Source of the DNA: Candidatus Thorarchaeota archaeon
Lineage (GTDB): Archaea; Asgardarchaeota; Thorarchaeia; Thorarchaeales; Thorarchaeaceae
DNA length: 64,000 nt
Reading direction: 5' to 3'
Assembly (NCBI GenBank): GCA_963726195.1
Contig: CAVSBO010000018.1
Coordinates: forward strand, 1-64,000
Position numbers and translations under genes: made by a program
The notes under the pieces: generated by a model
What the model was told of the DNA's origin: nothing
Database searches by the model: none
What the model saw: only the letters and a program-made list of their open reading frames with translations
Shown here: piece by piece, positions 12,544 to 30,081 of the stretch
Position numbering within the stretch: position 1 is the stretch's first letter
Layout of the letters: each line of letters opens with the position of its first letter

Positions 12544-13830
12544 GTGATTAAGACGTACACGCTCGGGCACGGCCTCTGTTTGGACGCTTTCTTCTTGGCC
12601 TACCGTGACACGCTCAACGGGATGATTTCCGAGATTTGGAATAACATCCGCTGGGCTGAGAAGTCGAAGAAGAGCAGCAAACAAGTGCGGGTCTTCCCGT
12701 TAATCCCAAATTACGCATTCAAGAAGTGGATGCGGGACGAGTTCCTCGACGGGTGGGAGTATTCCGCGCACTGGATCGACTCTGCGCTGAAGACCGCGTT
12801 CTCCGTCATCGACTCGTGGAAGAAGAACTACAACAAGGGATGGCGGAAGCGAAACAAGCCTGTCGTGAAGCGGTTCTTCGTCCGGGTGAAACAGACTCTG
12901 ATGAAGGTCGAGGGTGAACGGATGCGGATTCCAATCAAGCCGAACCAGTTCGTCTACATTGACCTCTCCAAGCAGCACTTCGCGCTGGACGGCAAAATCG
13001 GGGAGCCAATCCTCACAGACACCAAACTGCACATCCCAATCACGCTTCCGGATGGTGAAGCTGACGTGAAGGACGCGGTCGGGTGGGACTCGAACGTGTT
13101 CTCCATCGACGGCTAATCGGAAAGGCGTGGTTGGCTCAAGGTCGACATCAAGCCGCTGCATACCATCCACATCACCTATGACAACAAGCTCAGGAACATC
13201 AACCGTGTCTATGCCCGGAATAAGAAGGCGGGCATCAGTCTCTATGCCAAATACCGGGCGCGATGCAAGAATAGAATGAAGGAATACCTGTGCGACGTTG
13301 TCAACCAGATGACTGAGGTTCCCGCAATACACGGGTTCGAGAATCTGGAGAAGAAACACCTGTTCAAGAGTCATCACCGCCGCTGGAACCGCGAACTTGA
13401 CCACGCGGACTGGCGGCAGCTCTACCAGCTCGTGAAGAATAGAGCCGAGACCATCGAGGTGAACCTGGCATGGGCATCGAAGCGCTGCAGCAGGTGCGGG
13501 GCAACAAACAAATCCCTGAGAGCTGAGAAGGTCTTCGAGTGTCCGTCATGCGGATTGAGAATCGACCGACAGTTCAACGCGAGCGTCAACATCTACCTAA
13601 AGATGAGAGGAGTTTCACCGGAAGCGCCGTGGTTCGATGCCGTGGTGTTCCCGGCTGGGTTGCCCTTGATGGGAGCAGAGACGAGAGATACCGATGAACT
13701 CGCGAGGCATCTCGATGAACTGATGAAGCCCCGGGTCTACATGTCTGTCAATGAGCATGCAGGCCACAACCCTAATAGCCTTCCAGATTATCATCCGGAT
13801 GTTCAGCAGAACCGATGCCGTGGATTCTGA
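12544..13830 (+). pseudogene. tnpB: TnpB RNA-guided endonuclease (IS200/IS605/IS607 superfamily) with one in-frame nonsense codon
   Basis: The two ORF-track ORFs share a frame and are separated only by TAA at 13114-13116; RuvC-I VGWDSN, RuvC-II HGFENL, CSRCG/CPSCG Zn finger, DRQFNASVNI. Confidence 0.88.
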
Positions 13831-25505: not shown

Positions 25506-27111
25506 ATGTCTGACACAGACGAAGACCTCGGTCTCCGAAGAGAGATCATAGAAGCATTGCTTAGCTCAGAAGACTTTCTCGACAAACAGGCTATCAATCG
25601 CATCAAGAACCACGTTTGTGCAAAGTACCGGCGACCTGATATTCCGTCTAATGCTGACATACTTGAGGCCGCTCTGCCCGAAGAACTTGAACTGCTCACG
25701 CGACTGCTGCAAAAGCGTCCTGTGCGGACAGTCTCAGGTGTCGCTGTCGTTGCCGTGATGACCAGTCCTCGCCCCTGTCCTCACGGAAAATGCGCATATT
25801 GTCCCGGAGGACCAGAGAGTGGCGTCCCCCAAAGCTATACCGGCTTTGAACCAGCCACAATGAGGGGCCTACAGAATGATTTTGACCCGTACAGGCAAGT
25901 GGAGAGTAGACTGAGACAACTGAGAGCGACCGGGCATTCTGTCAACAAGACAGAGCTAATTGTCATGGGTGGAGACTGGTGCTCGAAGGATCAGAGCTAT
26001 CGAGAGTGTTTCGTCAAGGGGTGTCTTGATGCAATGAATGGCGGGATTAGTGAAAACATCGAAGCCGCCAAGACTCTCAATGAGGTCTCTCAAGTCAGAA
26101 ATGTGGGCATGACATTTGAGACACGGCCAGACATGATTACTACTGAATCTGTAGATGACATGTTGAGGATGGGTGCAACCCGGGTTGAAATCGGGGTTCA
26201 GAGTCTTTCTGATTCAATCCTCAAGCTTGTCGAAAGAGGCCATGATGTTGCTGCTACGGCTCGCGCGACAAAACTGCTCAGAGACTCTGGGCTGAAGGTG
26301 TGCTATCATATCATGCCCGGCCTGCCCGACACCACACCTGAAGATGACTTGGCCGGATTTGAACAGCTGTTCTCTGACTCTCGATTTCGTCCCGACATGC
26401 TGAAAATCTATCCGACATTGGTCATCAAAGGAACGAAGCTCCATGACTGGTGGGTGAAAGGTCAGCTACATTCCCTACGAAACAGAATCGACAGTGGACT
26501 TGCTGGCCCAAGCCATCAGCAAGATGCCTGAGTACGTTCGGATTCAGCGCATGCAGAGGGACATACCCCTTCACAAGATTGAAGCAGGACTGACGAAGGG
26601 AAACCTACGGGAACTTGTACATCAGAAGATGGAGGTTCTGGGTCTCAGGGACCGAACAATAAGATTCAGGGAAATCGGTCACTATGAGATGAGAACTGGG
26701 CAGAAAGTCAGCGCTGATCAATTGCAGACAGTCCGCCGGGACTATGAAGCATCAGATGGAACTGAAACTTTCCTGTCATTCGAAGAACCTGCTGCCGACG
26801 TGATTTGCGGCTTCCTCAGGCTTCGCAAGCCTAGCCGAGAGGCGCAACGACCTGAGTTAGCCCGGGGTCGAACTGCGATCATCCGTGAGCTACGTGTCTA
26901 TGGTCCCGTTGTTGATGTTGGAAAGAGGAAACCCGGGGCTTGGCAGCATTTAGGCTTGGGAGAGAAGCTCGTCTCTGCAGCTGAGAGAGTGGCCAGAAAG
27001 GATTACCATGCAGACCGACTGCTGGTCAATAGTGGGCTTGGCGTCAAGCAATACTATAGAAACCTTGGTTTCACGGATACTGGTCCATACTTGGTCAAGG
27101 TTCTGCGTTGA
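25506..27111 (+). CDS. elp3: Elp3 tRNA wobble-uridine acetyltransferase (radical SAM + KAT); apparent frameshift near 26463
   Basis: RTVSGVAVVAVM, CPHGKCAYCPGG, PQSYTG.EP, ETRPD, LKIYP; RIQR.QRDIP, RELRVYG, QHLGLG in the second frame. Confidence 0.95.
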
Positions 27112-27395: not shown

Positions 27396-27827
27396 TTGAA
27401 GCATGGCTTCAGATACCATGGGCACACGTCCGATATCACTATTGAATGCTGGGCCCCCACTCTTGAGAAGGCATTCGAAGAGGCCGCCTTGGCAACCTTT
27501 GAGGTGATGGTCGACACGGCTCTTGTGAGACCTACTGAGTCGGTGGAAGTGAGCGTCGGAGGAATCGATATGAAAGAGCTACTTCTTTCATGGATTGGAC
27601 GGCTTATAGCTCTTGTGGACATCAATCAGCAGTTCTACTCGAAGTTTGAAGTCAAAGAAATCTCGGGAGTGCCTGAAGGATTCTCGCTGAATGGCAACGT
27701 GTGGGGCGAAACGATAGATTTCGAAAGACACAAGCCGCGAACCGGAGTGAAAGCTATGACGTATGCTGACATGAAGATCGAGCAGTCAATCACAAAGTCA
27801 ACACTATGGTTCACGCTAGATTTGTAG
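27396..27827 (+). CDS. Archease (RtcB tRNA-ligase cofactor)
   Basis: FRYHGHTSDI.IE..A.TLE.AFEEAA, VKAMTY, TLDL; TTG start after AAGGAG. Confidence 0.92.
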   Translation: MKHGFRYHGHTSDITIECWAPTLEKAFEEAALATFEVMVDTALVRPTESVEVSVGGIDMKELLLSWIGRLIALVDINQQFYSKFEVKEISGVPEGFSLNGNVWGETIDFERHKPRTGVKAMTYADMKIEQSITKSTLWFTLDL

Positions 27828-27844
27828 GATAGGAGGTTCCAAGG

Positions 27845-28768
27845 ATGGGGCTTGTTGTCGCGATTCCGGACACATCACTTGCAGGTTGCTCCGACTTGCG
27901 TGAGAAGACGTTGAAGGCGGGCATTCTCGCGCGTGCTTTCGCAGTTTTCAGAGTTGACAAGGTGGTCATCTTCAGTTCTCCACTGGTTCATGACAATCAG
28001 AAAACAGATGCTGACCTGCTCTTTAGATTGCTCAAGTACATGGACACACCCCAGTATTTACGCAAGAAGCTCTTCCCGCAAACTCCTTGGCTGAGGTATG
28101 CTGGGCTTCTGCCTCCTCTCAGAACACGCAGCCACCCGCTCAATGCGAAGGTTTCTGGCCTCGTTAAGGGAGAGTTCAGATGGGGTGTTCCTGTTGCCAC
28201 AGGCAAGGTGGACATGGGTCTTGAGAGACCTTTGGATTATCCTGCTCCTTTGAACGAAAGAGAACCGACTCTCTTTAGAATCGCAGAGCTGCACCCGCGC
28301 ATACTGCTTGAGGTTATTCAGCGAGGCGATGCAGACGTGTACTGGGGTTTTGATGTACAATCCATTGAGAATCTCGTTCAATATCTAAGAGGCTCCGAAC
28401 ATACAACACGCATTGCTTTTTCGCGGATGGGTGAGCCGTTTGAGACTCTTCAAGCTGAAATCCAGTCCAGTGTCACAAGGACCGGAAGTGTGATTGCGCT
28501 ATTTGGAGGCCCATATCAAGGACTGCATGAAATCTTTGCTGATAGGCTCAAGTCGCTTGAGTCCTATACTGAGTTCTGGGTCAACACGATACCTGACCAA
28601 GGAACAGAGACGGTGCGTTTGGAAGAAGCACTATTCGCTAGCTTGGCTTTGGTGAATACTTCTGTGGGTTCACTGATATCGAAACCGGGTTTTCATAGAG
28701 AAACGCGGCGAGGAGACCCCCGACTTCAGTCGGGGGAGGAGACGCCGCCGCGGGATATACGAGTTTAA
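27845..28768 (+). CDS. SPOUT-family RNA methyltransferase (DUF171/SPOUT1-like); last 24 codons supplied by an inserted mini-IS
   Basis: LARAFAVFRVD, TPQYLRK.LF, YAGLLPPLRT..H, NTIPDQGTETVRLEEA; conserved position upstream of rpl3. Confidence 0.9.
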   Translation: MGLVVAIPDTSLAGCSDLREKTLKAGILARAFAVFRVDKVVIFSSPLVHDNQKTDADLLFRLLKYMDTPQYLRKKLFPQTPWLRYAGLLPPLRTRSHPLNAKVSGLVKGEFRWGVPVATGKVDMGLERPLDYPAPLNEREPTLFRIAELHPRILLEVIQRGDADVYWGFDVQSIENLVQYLRGSEHTTRIAFSRMGEPFETLQAEIQSSVTRTGSVIALFGGPYQGLHEIFADRLKSLESYTEFWVNTIPDQGTETVRLEEALFASLALVNTSVGSLISKPGFHRETRRGDPRLQSGEETPPRDIRV

Positions 28769-28925
28769 ATGTGAGCTTGAAAAGTGAAGGATCGTGTCCG
28801 ACCATGGCAATGCTGTGGTCGGGAGGGCGAAAGTCAACCGCCCGAATGTCGCGCGAAATGACGAAGTGGAGTTCCTACCTCGGATCGCAGTGGCAAGCCC
28901 ACGACCTTAGTCGCGGGTAGTTGAC
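28697..28925 (+). mobile_element. 229-bp non-autonomous IS200/IS605 miniature element (PATE-like)
   Basis: LE hairpin CCCCCGAC-TTCA-GTCGGGGG (28717-28736), RE hairpin CCCACGAC-CTTA-GTCGCGGG (28898-28917) followed by TAGTTGAC; guides GAGA and CAAG predict cleavage sites TCAT and TGAC, both present; removal gives CAT GTC TGA. Confidence 0.88.
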
Positions 28926-28945
28926 GTCTGAATCATTGATACGAG
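28795..28945 (+). ncRNA. Putative stand-alone TnpB omega-RNA (scaffold plus flank-derived guide)
   Basis: TATA-like TTTAAAT at 28764; hairpin 28798-28822; GGGCG/CGCCC stem whose loop GTCAAC (28833-28838) can pair with terminal GTTGAC (28920-28925); RE hairpin. Confidence 0.6.
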
Positions 28946-29073
28946 AGTAATGCGCCACGCAACTATGAGCCGTCACAAGGGAAGATTAAAAAGCGAAACT
29001 CAGGAAGGCGCCCGCCTGTAGTACGAATAGCCCAGTCAAAAGGCCGTTCGATAAGGGACAAGTGGTGTTCTAG

Positions 29074-30081
29074 ATGGCTCACAGAAAGAAGCATCAGCCT
29101 AAGCGTGGCAGTCTCGCATACTTGCCACGAGGTCGGGCTTCCAAGTTCGTCCCTAGGATTATGAACTGGCCTGAGTGGAAGGGCTCGGCTGCAAAACTAC
29201 TTGGTTTCGCCGGCTACAAGGCTGGCATGACTCATGCAGTGGTTACAAATGACAACGTGAACAGCCCACTGAAAGGACAAGAAACAGTGGTGCCGGTGAC
29301 AGTCATTGATACGCCACCTGTGCGCCCGTTTTCAATTCGAGGCTACGAAGCCTTACCAACGGGTCTTAGACTAGTCACAGAAGTGCTTGCAGGGAATCTT
29401 TCCGAGGATCTTCGAAAAGTGATGCCTATCCCCAAAGAGTACGACCAAGCTGCAAAGATGCAGGAGTTCGAGTCAAAGATTGACTCCCTCGCCGAGATCC
29501 GGATGTTAATTCACACTCAGCCAAGGCTCGCAGGAGTGCCTAAGAAGAAGCCCGATGTGATGGAATACAAGGTGGGTGCCCCGAGTGTCAGTGAGGCGTT
29601 CAAGTATGCCCAGACTATCTTGGGAGCCGACTTGCGTATCGCAGATATCATAACCGACGGTGTGATGGTGGATACAATCGCCGTAACAAAGGGGCACGGA
29701 AATCAAGGCCCAGTACGTCGATGGGGCGTTGGAATACTCCAGCACAAATCAAGGAAGACGAAGCGCGGAGTAGGAACTCTTGGTCCTTGGAACCCTAGCA
29801 GCATCCGATACACAGTTCCCCGAGCTGGGCAGACAGGCTTTCATTCGCGTACCAGCTTCAATAATCCTGTAATCAAAGTTGGTGAGCGTGGTGAGGAAAT
29901 CACGCCCTCAGGCGGATTCGTGCACTATGGGGTCATTCGCGGCGATTATGTCATGCTAATGGGACATGTGCCTGGGACAATCAAGAGACCCATTCGACTG
30001 AGGTTCGCTATCCGTCCTCGAAGGAACTACACTGGAGCTCCGATACGGCCCAGCTACATCAGCACTTCATCGAAGCAATAG
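29074..30081 (+). CDS. rpl3: 50S ribosomal protein L3
   Basis: PKRGSLAYLPR, FAGYKAGMTH, VTKGHG.QGPV.RWG. Confidence 0.97.
   Translation: MAHRKKHQPKRGSLAYLPRGRASKFVPRIMNWPEWKGSAAKLLGFAGYKAGMTHAVVTNDNVNSPLKGQETVVPVTVIDTPPVRPFSIRGYEALPTGLRLVTEVLAGNLSEDLRKVMPIPKEYDQAAKMQEFESKIDSLAEIRMLIHTQPRLAGVPKKKPDVMEYKVGAPSVSEAFKYAQTILGADLRIADIITDGVMVDTIAVTKGHGNQGPVRRWGVGILQHKSRKTKRGVGTLGPWNPSSIRYTVPRAGQTGFHSRTSFNNPVIKVGERGEEITPSGGFVHYGVIRGDYVMLMGHVPGTIKRPIRLRFAIRPRRNYTGAPIRPSYISTSSKQ

What the first reader, a model, noticed from the sequence alone, without database searches (positions are those of the whole stretch)
28697..28945. Protein-free IS200/IS605 mini-element that appears to be a self-promoted TnpB omega-RNA cassette, with exactly reconstructable ends
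Seen: two subterminal hairpins typical of IS200/IS605 ends only ~160 bp apart, with no tnpA or tnpB. Known: in IS608/ISDra2 the 4-nt guide 5' of each hairpin pairs with the cleavage site (guide positions 1, 2, 4 with site positions -3, -4, -1). Here GAGA (28713-16) predicts TCnT and TCAT lies at 28693-96; CAAG (28894-97) predicts TGnC and TGAC lies at 28922-25. Excising 28697-28925 gives ...GGT TTT CAT|GTC TGA, a clean stop for the host gene, with no target duplication, as this family requires. The interior has a TATA box (TTTAAAT, 28764), an 11-bp hairpin (28798-28822) and a stem whose loop GTCAAC can pseudoknot with the terminal GTTGAC. Inference: the element was reduced to ends, promoter and omega-RNA, and borrows TnpA and TnpB in trans; its guide (GTCTGAATCATTGATA...) would target the empty allele next to a TTCAT TAM. 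Such PATE-like elements are known in bacteria; I am not aware of a description in this lineage.
Basis: partly seen in the sequence, partly recalled or inferred. Interest (0 to 1): 0.82.

Follow-up and report, generated by a model that had tools for sequence, protein, structure and literature searches.

The report
Mini IS605 element carrying guide RNA
A 229-bp protein-free jumping element in a Thorarchaeota (Asgard archaeon) genome is a cut-down copy of a TnpB transposon that keeps its two ends, a promoter-like box and the whole guide-RNA scaffold. It is real and well supported, but it belongs to a kind already described.

Summary
Window 28697-28925 is one of seven ~229-bp protein-free copies (90-94% identical to this one) in this genome. 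There are also four ~1.28-kb elements with the same ends and an intact tnpB.

- **Insertion site:** nine of the 11 copies lie just 3' of TTCAT; the other two flanks differ by one base. All end in GTAGTTGAC or a one-base variant.
- **RNA structure:** the retained 129 nt are the 3' end of tnpB plus the right end. They form four helices and a pseudoknot that covary across 29 sequences.
- **Constraint:** among the protein-free copies, 18 of 19 scaffold substitutions keep base pairing.

Two parts of the reading are unproven. No Y1 TnpA was found in this 89%-complete genome, although close metagenomic relatives carry one. Transcription could not be tested.

The kind is known. Palindrome-associated transposable elements (PATEs) were first described in archaea, and standalone omega-RNAs acting in trans are published. 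This is therefore a new member of a known kind. First readers of this scan had already flagged the other copies of this family on other pieces of the same genome.

The parts
28692..28696 (+). TTCAT, the target/cleavage motif left of the element. It is the predicted transposon-adjacent motif (TAM) for TnpB.
   Evidence: The left flank is TTCAT in 9 of 11 copies; the variants are CTCAT, TTGAT and TTCAC. It is present at the empty site in relatives. A 56%-identical relative (L032) also follows TTCAT.
28697..28925 (+). The 229-bp protein-free mini-element: a PATE-like internal-deletion derivative of a tnpB-only IS200/IS605 element.
   Evidence: There are six further copies, 90-94% identical to it, with unrelated flanks. 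It is absent from 40 related genomes. The site is precisely empty in G002, L067-L070 and L073.
28697..28762 (+). Left end. It contains the interrupted palindrome 28705-48, the inner hairpin 28717-36, and the DNA guide GAGA at 28713-16, just 5' of the hairpin foot.
   Evidence: Inverted repeat I1. Shared with the left ends of the four full-length elements at 79-85% identity over the stretches that align. GAGA fits TCnT by the IS608 rule. One mini copy restores an A-T pair in the stem.
28763..28769 (+). TTTAAAT, a TATA-box-like motif. In the full elements it lies upstream of the tnpB start codon.
   Evidence: Invariant in all 7 mini copies. The full elements have ATTTAAG about 37 nt before the tnpB ATG. 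About half of this genome's tRNA genes have similar T/A-rich boxes about 28-35 nt before the mature 5' end (read by eye). Its function here is inferred, not shown.
28770..28796 (+). Linker across the internal deletion joint. The predicted transcription start is near 28789-95.
   Evidence: This is the least conserved part, 85.9% mean pairwise identity for 28764-96. Similarity to the full elements resumes at 28797.
28797..28925 (+). Omega-RNA scaffold, 129 nt. Helix 1 pairs 28797-808 with 28812-23. Helix 2 pairs 28825-29 with 28839-43. The long helix pairs 28848-69 with 28875-94. The right-end hairpin pairs 28897-905 with 28910-18. The pseudoknot pairs 28833-38 with 28920-25.
   Evidence: It equals the 3' end of tnpB plus the right end in the full copies. 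Model R1 hits 18 relatives and 8 metagenome loci. In alignment A3, 97.3% of cells pair, 36 of 46 pairs show compensatory change, and 4 of 6 pseudoknot pairs covary.
28894..28897 (+). CAAG, the right-end DNA guide, 5' of the right-end hairpin.
   Evidence: It predicts TGnC, and TGAC is at 28922-25. In L048 and L060 the guide is AAAG and the end is TTAC, a joint change that obeys the rule.
28926..28945 (+). Flank that would be read as the guide (GTCTGAATCATTGATA...). It also holds the host SPOUT gene's original last codon and stop (GTC TGA).
   Evidence: The conspecific empty allele L070 reads TTCAT followed by the same 16 nt. TCAT plus this guide matches nowhere else in the genome at up to 3 mismatches.
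27845..28768 (+). Host SPOUT (Methyltrn_RNA_3) gene. The insertion replaced its final V-stop with a 24-residue tail read from the element.
   Evidence: Pfam PF02598 covers residues 4-269. In G002 the protein ends in GFHV*, and orthologues are 284-287 aa.

Best explanation
Window 28697-28925 is a non-autonomous IS200/IS605-family mini-element (a PATE). It arose from a ~1.28-kb tnpB-only (IS1341-type) element by internal deletion of almost the whole tnpB gene.

It keeps four things:
- the left end, with its subterminal hairpin and DNA guide;
- the tnpB promoter-like TATA box;
- the complete 129-nt omega-RNA scaffold, which in full copies overlaps the last ~38 tnpB codons;
- the right-end hairpin and cleavage site.

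It inserted as this family does: 3' of TTCAT, without target duplication, between the last sense codon region of a SPOUT methyltransferase gene and its stop.

The likely mechanism has the following steps, all inferred:
- The left-end promoter starts transcription a few nucleotides before the scaffold.
- The transcript runs over the right end, giving scaffold plus a flank-derived guide.
- TnpB from one of the four intact full copies binds this RNA in trans.
- The complex cuts any TTCAT-plus-guide sequence, that is, the empty allele.
- Repair from an occupied copy then restores or spreads the element.

Mobilisation needs a Y1 TnpA, which this assembly lacks. Present-day transposition is therefore doubtful.

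Shown: identity, boundaries, copy family, parent elements, empty site, conserved RNA structure, and constraint on that structure in the protein-free copies. Inferred: transcription, TnpB loading in trans, and cleavage.
For: **Copy family**
- There are 7 mini and 4 full copies, and exactly 11 hits to scaffold model R1 in the genome.
- All four full copies encode an uninterrupted 384-aa TnpB with GxDRG, LEDL, HADLNAA and CxxC..CxxC motifs. The protein scores 157 bits against NF040570 guided_TnpB (cut-off 100) and matches PF07282 at 7.8e-23.

**Insertion**
- The left flank is TTCAT in 9 of 11 copies.
- The site is empty, with no duplication, in sister species G002 and in five public contigs. One of these, L070, is 96-99% identical to the window's flanks.

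**Y1-type ends**
- The two subterminal hairpins resemble each other.
- GAGA/TCAT and CAAG/TGAC obey the IS608 guide rule at ends fixed independently. By my arithmetic, the chance of both fitting is about 1 in 4096.
- AAAG/TTAC in L048 and L060 is a covarying case.
- Y1 tnpA sits beside related tnpB genes: L078 (80% TnpB identity, PF01797 at 52.5 bits) and L061 (44% identity, NF033573 at 129 bits).

**RNA**
- 97.3% of cells pair, against 27-47% when partners are slid.
- 36 of 46 pairs show changes on both sides.
- The pseudoknot was not part of the search model. It pairs in 99.4% of cells with four compensatory variants: GTCAAT/ATTGAC, GTCAGC/GCTGAC, GTAAAC/GTTTAC and GTCGAC/GTCGAC.
- The architecture matches the ISDra2 omega-RNA: four stems plus a pseudoknot next to the guide, with a 116-nt scaffold there (PMC10097598).

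**Constraint in the protein-free copies**
- The scaffold is 93.9% identical between copies, against 88.0% for the left end and 85.9% for the linker.
- Only 1 of 19 substitution events breaks a pair, against a null mean of 7.2 (P about 1e-4).
- Similarity to the full copies resumes at 28797, the first base of helix 1.
Against: - No Y1 transposase was found in the 2.9-Mb, 88.9%-complete assembly with Pfam PF01797 or with a relative's TnpA. The best hits were E = 0.28 and 0.13 at a single spot.
- The copies differ by 6-12%, so the burst is not recent.
- There is no expression evidence.
- The promoter reading rests on one TATA-like box.
- This copy has one broken pair in the long helix (G to A at 28865).
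- The substitution null model assumes uniform mutation and treats the consensus as the ancestor.
- Gene conversion from the full copies could also keep scaffolds alike.
Confidence: 0.8

Rival explanations
1. It is an inert relic. The mini-element is a real deletion derivative that once transposed, but it is now dead DNA. It is not transcribed into a working omega-RNA, TnpB does not use it, and it cannot move because the genome has no TnpA.
For: No Y1 TnpA was found in the genome. Mean pairwise divergence between copies is 6-14% by region. No expression data exist. Neither the element nor this TnpB clade was found in sister genomes, which would fit an old, isolated invasion.
Against: The scaffold is the best-conserved part of the protein-free copies, and 18 of 19 substitutions there keep pairing (P about 1e-4). 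The TATA-like box is invariant in all seven copies. The deletion spared the scaffold to the base. Four intact tnpB genes with near-identical scaffolds remain.
Confidence: 0.17
2. It is a host-recruited regulatory RNA. The copy next to the rpl3 operon has been taken over by the host, for example as a leader or antisense regulator, and its transposon origin is incidental.
For: It lies on the same strand between the SPOUT gene and the ribosomal-protein operon, and carries a promoter-like box reading towards rpl3.
Against: A conspecific contig and all relatives lack it at this site and keep the same 142-nt spacer and conserved rpl3 leader. The other six copies sit in unrelated contexts.
Confidence: 0.02
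3. The element is mobilised by a different transposase, such as the serine-recombinase TnpA of IS607-type elements reported in this genome, rather than by a Y1 TnpA.
For: An earlier first-reader note reports IS607-like elements in this genome (not checked here). No Y1 TnpA is present.
Against: The ends have the IS200/IS605 signature: similar subterminal hairpins, a guide/cleavage-site match at both ends, insertion 3' of a pentanucleotide, and no duplication. Relatives of this tnpB clade sit beside Y1 tnpA genes.
Confidence: 0.01

Closest known systems
PATEs (palindrome-associated transposable elements) of Haloquadratum walsbyi and Geobacillus stearothermophilus
   Same: They are protein-free, have no terminal inverted repeats, carry near-terminal palindromes like those of IS605-type elements, and make no target duplication. 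They arise from tnpB (IS1341-type) elements by core deletion and expand as homogeneous families above 90% identity (PMC3119063). Meers et al. state that PATEs often encode omega-RNAs that TnpB must act on in trans (PMC10055086).
   Different: The host is a Thorarchaeota (Asgard) genome, and the sequence family is new. Here the deletion leaves the whole scaffold and places the tnpB TATA-like box about 28 nt before it. Constraint on the RNA structure in the protein-free copies is measured. Many Haloquadratum PATEs are ends only (52 bp).
Standalone omega-RNAs of OMEGA systems (Altae-Tran et al. 2021, as summarised in PMC10691335)
   Same: They are mobilised omega-RNA loci that lack effector and transposase, sit in the same genome as effector-bearing loci, and are reported to work in trans with compatible effectors.
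   Different: As summarised there, activity in trans was shown experimentally; the details rest on my memory of the 2021 paper. Nothing functional has been tested for this archaeal TnpB family.
ISDra2 TnpB and its omega-RNA (Deinococcus radiodurans)
   Same: The RNA is derived from the 3' end of tnpB plus the right end, with the guide taken from the flank. The TAM equals the transposon target pentanucleotide (TTGAT there, TTCAT here). There are four stems plus a pseudoknot between the guide-adjacent nucleotides and a 5'-proximal segment, and the scaffold is 116 nt against 129 nt here (PMC10097598).
   Different: There is no detectable sequence similarity of the RNA, and no Rfam match. P0001 scores only 57.5 bits against NCBIfam IS200_TnpB, whose cut-off is 425. 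ISDra2 carries its own tnpA.
IS608 (Helicobacter pylori) TnpA end recognition
   Same: A tetranucleotide 5' of each subterminal hairpin pairs with the cleavage site, guide positions 1, 2 and 4 with site positions -3, -4 and -1. The left site lies about 20 nt before the hairpin and the right site a few nt after it. The IS608 rule is cited from established knowledge. L048 and L060 even use IS608's own pair AAAG/TTAC.
   Different: No TnpA is present in this genome. The pairing is inferred from sequence only.

Membership tests
IS200/IS605 family, non-autonomous derivative (PATE) | Subterminal imperfect palindromes at both ends and no terminal inverted repeats | tested here: met
   The left hairpin is at 28717-36 and the right hairpin at 28898-917, with similar stems (CCCCCGAC / CCCACGAC).
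IS200/IS605 family, non-autonomous derivative (PATE) | Insertion 3' of a conserved tetra/pentanucleotide, without target-site duplication | tested here: met
   The left flank is TTCAT in 9 of 11 copies. The empty sites read TTTCAT|GTCTGA.
IS200/IS605 family, non-autonomous derivative (PATE) | DNA guide 5' of each hairpin complementary to the cleavage site (IS608 rule) | tested here: met
   GAGA/TCAT and CAAG/TGAC both fit at ends fixed independently. AAAG/TTAC covaries in L048 and L060. GAAA with a TTCAT flank is seen in L032.
IS200/IS605 family, non-autonomous derivative (PATE) | A Y1 HUH transposase (TnpA) that mobilises the family | tested here: inconclusive
   None was found in the element's own genome, which is 88.9% complete. 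One is present beside related tnpB genes in L078 (80% TnpB identity) and L061 (44%).
IS200/IS605 family, non-autonomous derivative (PATE) | Too short to encode a protein, and related to a protein-coding parent element | tested here: met
   The element is 229 bp and contains only short chance ORFs of 49-55 aa. Both ends align to four ~1.28-kb tnpB elements.
TnpB omega-RNA (OMEGA guide RNA) | Encoded at the 3' end of tnpB and the right end, with the guide lying just outside the element | tested here: met
   The scaffold overlaps the last ~38 codons of tnpB in the four full copies and ends at the element boundary.
TnpB omega-RNA (OMEGA guide RNA) | Conserved multi-stem structure with a pseudoknot next to the guide | tested here: met
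   36 of 46 pairs show compensatory change, and 4 of 6 pseudoknot pairs do. Compare PMC10097598.
TnpB omega-RNA (OMEGA guide RNA) | A cognate TnpB with an intact RuvC site in the same genome | tested here: met
   There are four uninterrupted genes with D-E-D and zinc-finger motifs. NF040570 scores 157 bits.
TnpB omega-RNA (OMEGA guide RNA) | The RNA is expressed and bound by TnpB, and directs TAM-dependent DNA cleavage | not testable with these tools
Any Rfam RNA family | A match at or above the family's gathering score | tested here: not met
   Only two chance-level matches were found, at E = 3.3 and 5.9.

The most novel reading that the evidence does not exclude
The protein-free cassettes may be more than decaying leftovers. 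They could be selected, RNA-only 'homing' units. Each would supply a guide that makes trans-encoded TnpB cut the empty allele (TTCAT plus flank) on other chromosome copies or on DNA from conspecific cells. The insertion would then spread by recombination even in a genome that has lost TnpA. If so, this would be a minimal gene drive in an Asgard archaeon, made of about 130 nt of RNA and a borrowed promoter.
Probability: 0.25. Interest if true: 0.6.

Novelty: new member of a known kind. Interest (0 to 1): 0.4.

Why it matters
It provides a cleanly delimited archaeal TnpB system from an Asgard lineage. The system has a defined TAM (TTCAT) and a 129-nt scaffold with a covariation-supported structure. 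It has four candidate effector genes and 11 natural guides.

The protein-free copies show measurable constraint on RNA structure. This supports the published idea that omega-RNAs are modular and can persist apart from their nuclease.

The element also matters for annotation. Such copies can be mistaken for host non-coding RNAs, and they alter gene ends. Here a SPOUT methyltransferase gains a 24-residue tail.

It does not open a new category.

Tried and rejected
- **Rfam:** a permissive scan of 27500-30000 gave only chance-level hits. I considered a known host RNA (RNase P, SRP, C/D box) and dropped the idea.
- **Conserved host ncRNA:** rejected. The element is absent from 40 relatives and the orthologous site is empty.
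- **Y1 TnpA in the genome:** Pfam and a relative's TnpA both give only a faint spot at C16:15488-15571, which overlaps the N-terminus of another tnpB ORF. I treat it as chance or a relic.
- **Exact-pattern scan of metagenome contigs** with a 33-nt scaffold motif found nothing.
- **Protein scan of genome contigs** found only one partial relative, titled Promethearchaeota archaeon.
- **ESM Atlas look-up of L3** did not resolve the lineage beyond Archaea. The lineage came from a named L4 cluster member.
- **Left ends in distant relatives:** an automatic search by hairpin similarity gave clear results only for L032. The hits in L040, L057 and L058 could not be delimited, so left-end guide/TAM covariation across the clade remains untested.
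- **Complex prediction and structure prediction** were not used. The TnpB assignment was clear from sequence.

Full report
**Observation**

- TTCAT at 28692-96.
- A left-end hairpin at 28717-36, inside a longer interrupted palindrome at 28705-48.
- A 12-bp hairpin at 28797-823.
- A GGGCG/CGCCC stem with the loop GTCAAC at 28833-38.
- A right-end hairpin at 28898-917, and the terminal GTTGAC at 28920-25.

The region folds better than all 200 shuffles on the + strand (z = -4.05). Rfam has no match.

**A repeat family with parents**

A search of the window's own genome (2.9 Mb, 19 contigs, 88.9% complete) found six more ~229-bp copies, 90-94% identical to this one. It also found four places where the last ~135 nt and the first ~70 nt lie about 1.2 kb apart.

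In an alignment of the seven short copies with 60 nt of flank, similarity starts right after (T)TCAT and stops right after GTAGTTGAC. The flanks are unrelated.

The four long copies are ~1.28-kb elements with one gene. Its 384-aa product matches the TnpB families:
- PF07282 at 7.8e-23.
- NF040570 guided_TnpB at 157 bits, against a cut-off of 100.
- Cas12f and TnpB structures in the PDB.

All four genes are uninterrupted and keep the GxDRG, LEDL and HADLNAA motifs and the zinc finger. A covariance model of the retained right part finds exactly 11 places in the genome: the 7 short and 4 long copies.

**Empty site**

The closest species in the collection, G002 (SPOUT 83% identical), reads ...CCGGGTTTTCAT|GTCTGAGTCATCG..., and its SPOUT protein ends in GFHV*.

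Five public contigs carrying a 90%-or-more identical L4 protein also have a 284-287-aa SPOUT gene and the same 142-nt spacer before rpl3. One of them, L070, is 96-99% identical to the window's flanks. It reads TTTCAT|GTCTGAATCATTGATAT, which is the TAM plus the first 16 nt of the predicted guide.

So the insertion is younger than the species-level divergence. It made no target duplication, and it replaced the SPOUT gene's last codon and stop with a 24-residue tail.

Neither the element nor this TnpB clade was found in same-family genomes. The element DNA was sought in the 24 same-family genomes among the 40 relatives, and the TnpB in 76. The nearest TnpB relatives (51-57% identity) are in another family of the same phylum. 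That pattern suggests horizontal arrival.

**Host**

An L4 cluster member is named Candidatus Thorarchaeota archaeon. The single genome contigs relative is a Promethearchaeota (Asgard) MAG. An earlier agent reached the same lineage.

**Which transposon family**

The ends carry the IS200/IS605 signature: similar subterminal hairpins, insertion 3' of a pentanucleotide, and no duplication.

With the ends fixed by the empty site, the tetranucleotides 5' of the hairpin feet fit the cleavage sites. GAGA fits TCAT and CAAG fits TGAC under the IS608 rule, which pairs guide positions 1, 2 and 4 with site positions -3, -4 and -1. The rule is cited from established knowledge of IS608/ISDra2. By my arithmetic, the chance that both ends fit is about 1 in 4096.

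In two distant relatives, the right-end guide and the element end change together to AAAG/TTAC.

No Y1 transposase was found in this genome, although it holds about 35 TnpB-domain hits. Y1 tnpA genes do sit beside relatives of this tnpB:
- A complete divergent tnpA in G056, where the TnpB is 44% identical. NF033573 scores 129 bits.
- A tnpA N-terminus cut by the contig end, next to an 80%-identical tnpB, in metagenome contig L078 (PF01797 at 52.5 bits).

The family is therefore Y1-mobilised, but 'borrows TnpA in trans' cannot be shown for this genome.

**The RNA**

The short copies keep 129 nt (28797-28925). In the long copies these are the last ~38 codons of tnpB plus the right end.

Model R1, built from the 11 copies, hits the 3' ends of 18 related tnpB genes from other Asgard genomes and all 8 metagenome relatives.

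On the 29-row alignment A3:
- 97.3% of cells form standard pairs, against 27-47% when partners are slid by 1-3 columns.
- 36 of 46 pairs show changes on both sides.

The nested helices were fitted to the model, which favours them. The pseudoknot was not in the model, so it is an independent test. It pairs in 99.4% of cells and has four compensatory variants: GTCAAT/ATTGAC, GTCAGC/GCTGAC, GTAAAC/GTTTAC, and GTCGAC/GTCGAC in one of this genome's own full copies.

Four stems plus a pseudoknot between the guide-adjacent nucleotides and a 5'-proximal loop is the architecture solved for the ISDra2 omega-RNA (PMC10097598).

**Is the RNA still constrained without the gene?**

Among the seven protein-free copies, mean pairwise identity by region is:

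| Region | Mean pairwise identity |
|---|---|
| Scaffold (28797-28925) | 93.9% |
| Left end (28697-28763) | 88.0% |
| TATA box plus linker (28764-28796) | 85.9% |

Of 19 substitution events in the scaffold, nine fall in paired columns and only one breaks a pair. The null mean is 7.2 breaks (P about 1e-4). The breaking change is G to A at 28865, in the window's own copy.

Similarity between short and long copies resumes at 28797, the first base of helix 1.

These points argue that the short copies are kept for the RNA. Gene conversion from the long copies and the simple null model are caveats.

**Promoter**

TTTAAAT is invariant in the seven copies. It corresponds to the box about 37 nt before the tnpB ATG in the long copies.

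By eye, about half of this genome's tRNA genes have similar T/A-rich boxes about 28-35 nt before the mature 5' end. By that spacing, transcription would start near 28789-95, just before the scaffold. This is inference only.

**Comparison with what is known**

- PATEs were defined in the archaeon Haloquadratum walsbyi as transposase-free derivatives of IS605/IS1341-type elements, made by core deletion (PMC3119063).
- Meers et al. note that PATEs often encode omega-RNAs that need TnpB in trans (PMC10055086).
- Altae-Tran et al. summarise that standalone, mobilised omega-RNAs work in trans with compatible effectors (PMC10691335).
- IS200/IS605 elements occur in more than 65% of Asgard genomes (PMC13343696).
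- I found no description of such a cassette in Thorarchaeota in the library searched.

**Verdict**

It is a new, well-characterised member of a known kind.

First readers of this scan had already flagged the other copies of this family on other pieces of the same genome.

Noticed in passing
window 28985-29070: The non-coding leader upstream of rpl3 has a TTAAAAAG box followed by GTAGTACGAATAGCCCAGTC.A.AGGCCGTTCG. It is nearly invariant across the genus and even in another genus (L029), while the neighbouring SPOUT protein is only 48-83% identical. It has no Rfam match. It could be a ribosomal-protein operon leader.
   Followed up: partly
window 25506-27111: Elp3 is split into two overlapping ORFs in different frames (25506-26531 and 26494-27111). 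Relatives have a single 534-536-aa gene. This is either a frameshift or an assembly error.
   Followed up: no
whole genome G000; faint spot at C16:15488-15571: The genome has about 35 TnpB TNB-domain hits from several families but no detectable Y1 TnpA. The only faint TnpA-like stretch overlaps the start of another tnpB ORF.
   Followed up: partly
window 28833-38, 28894-97, 28920-25; L048 and L060: The terminal hexamer has two roles. It is the TnpA cleavage site that pairs with the DNA guide, and it is the 3' strand of the omega-RNA pseudoknot. In L048 and L060 the loop, the DNA guide and the end all change together (GTAAAC / AAAG / GTTTAC).
   Followed up: partly
window 13423-13593: Another TnpB-type TNB domain, from a different family, lies in this window on the + strand within a 237-aa open frame.
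   Followed up: no
G000 against 300 genomes of the phylum: This TnpB clade was not found in 76 genomes of the host's own family. It occurs in other Asgard families at 33-57% identity, and at 78-89% in JGI metagenome contigs Ga03152xx. That suggests horizontal acquisition.
   Followed up: partly
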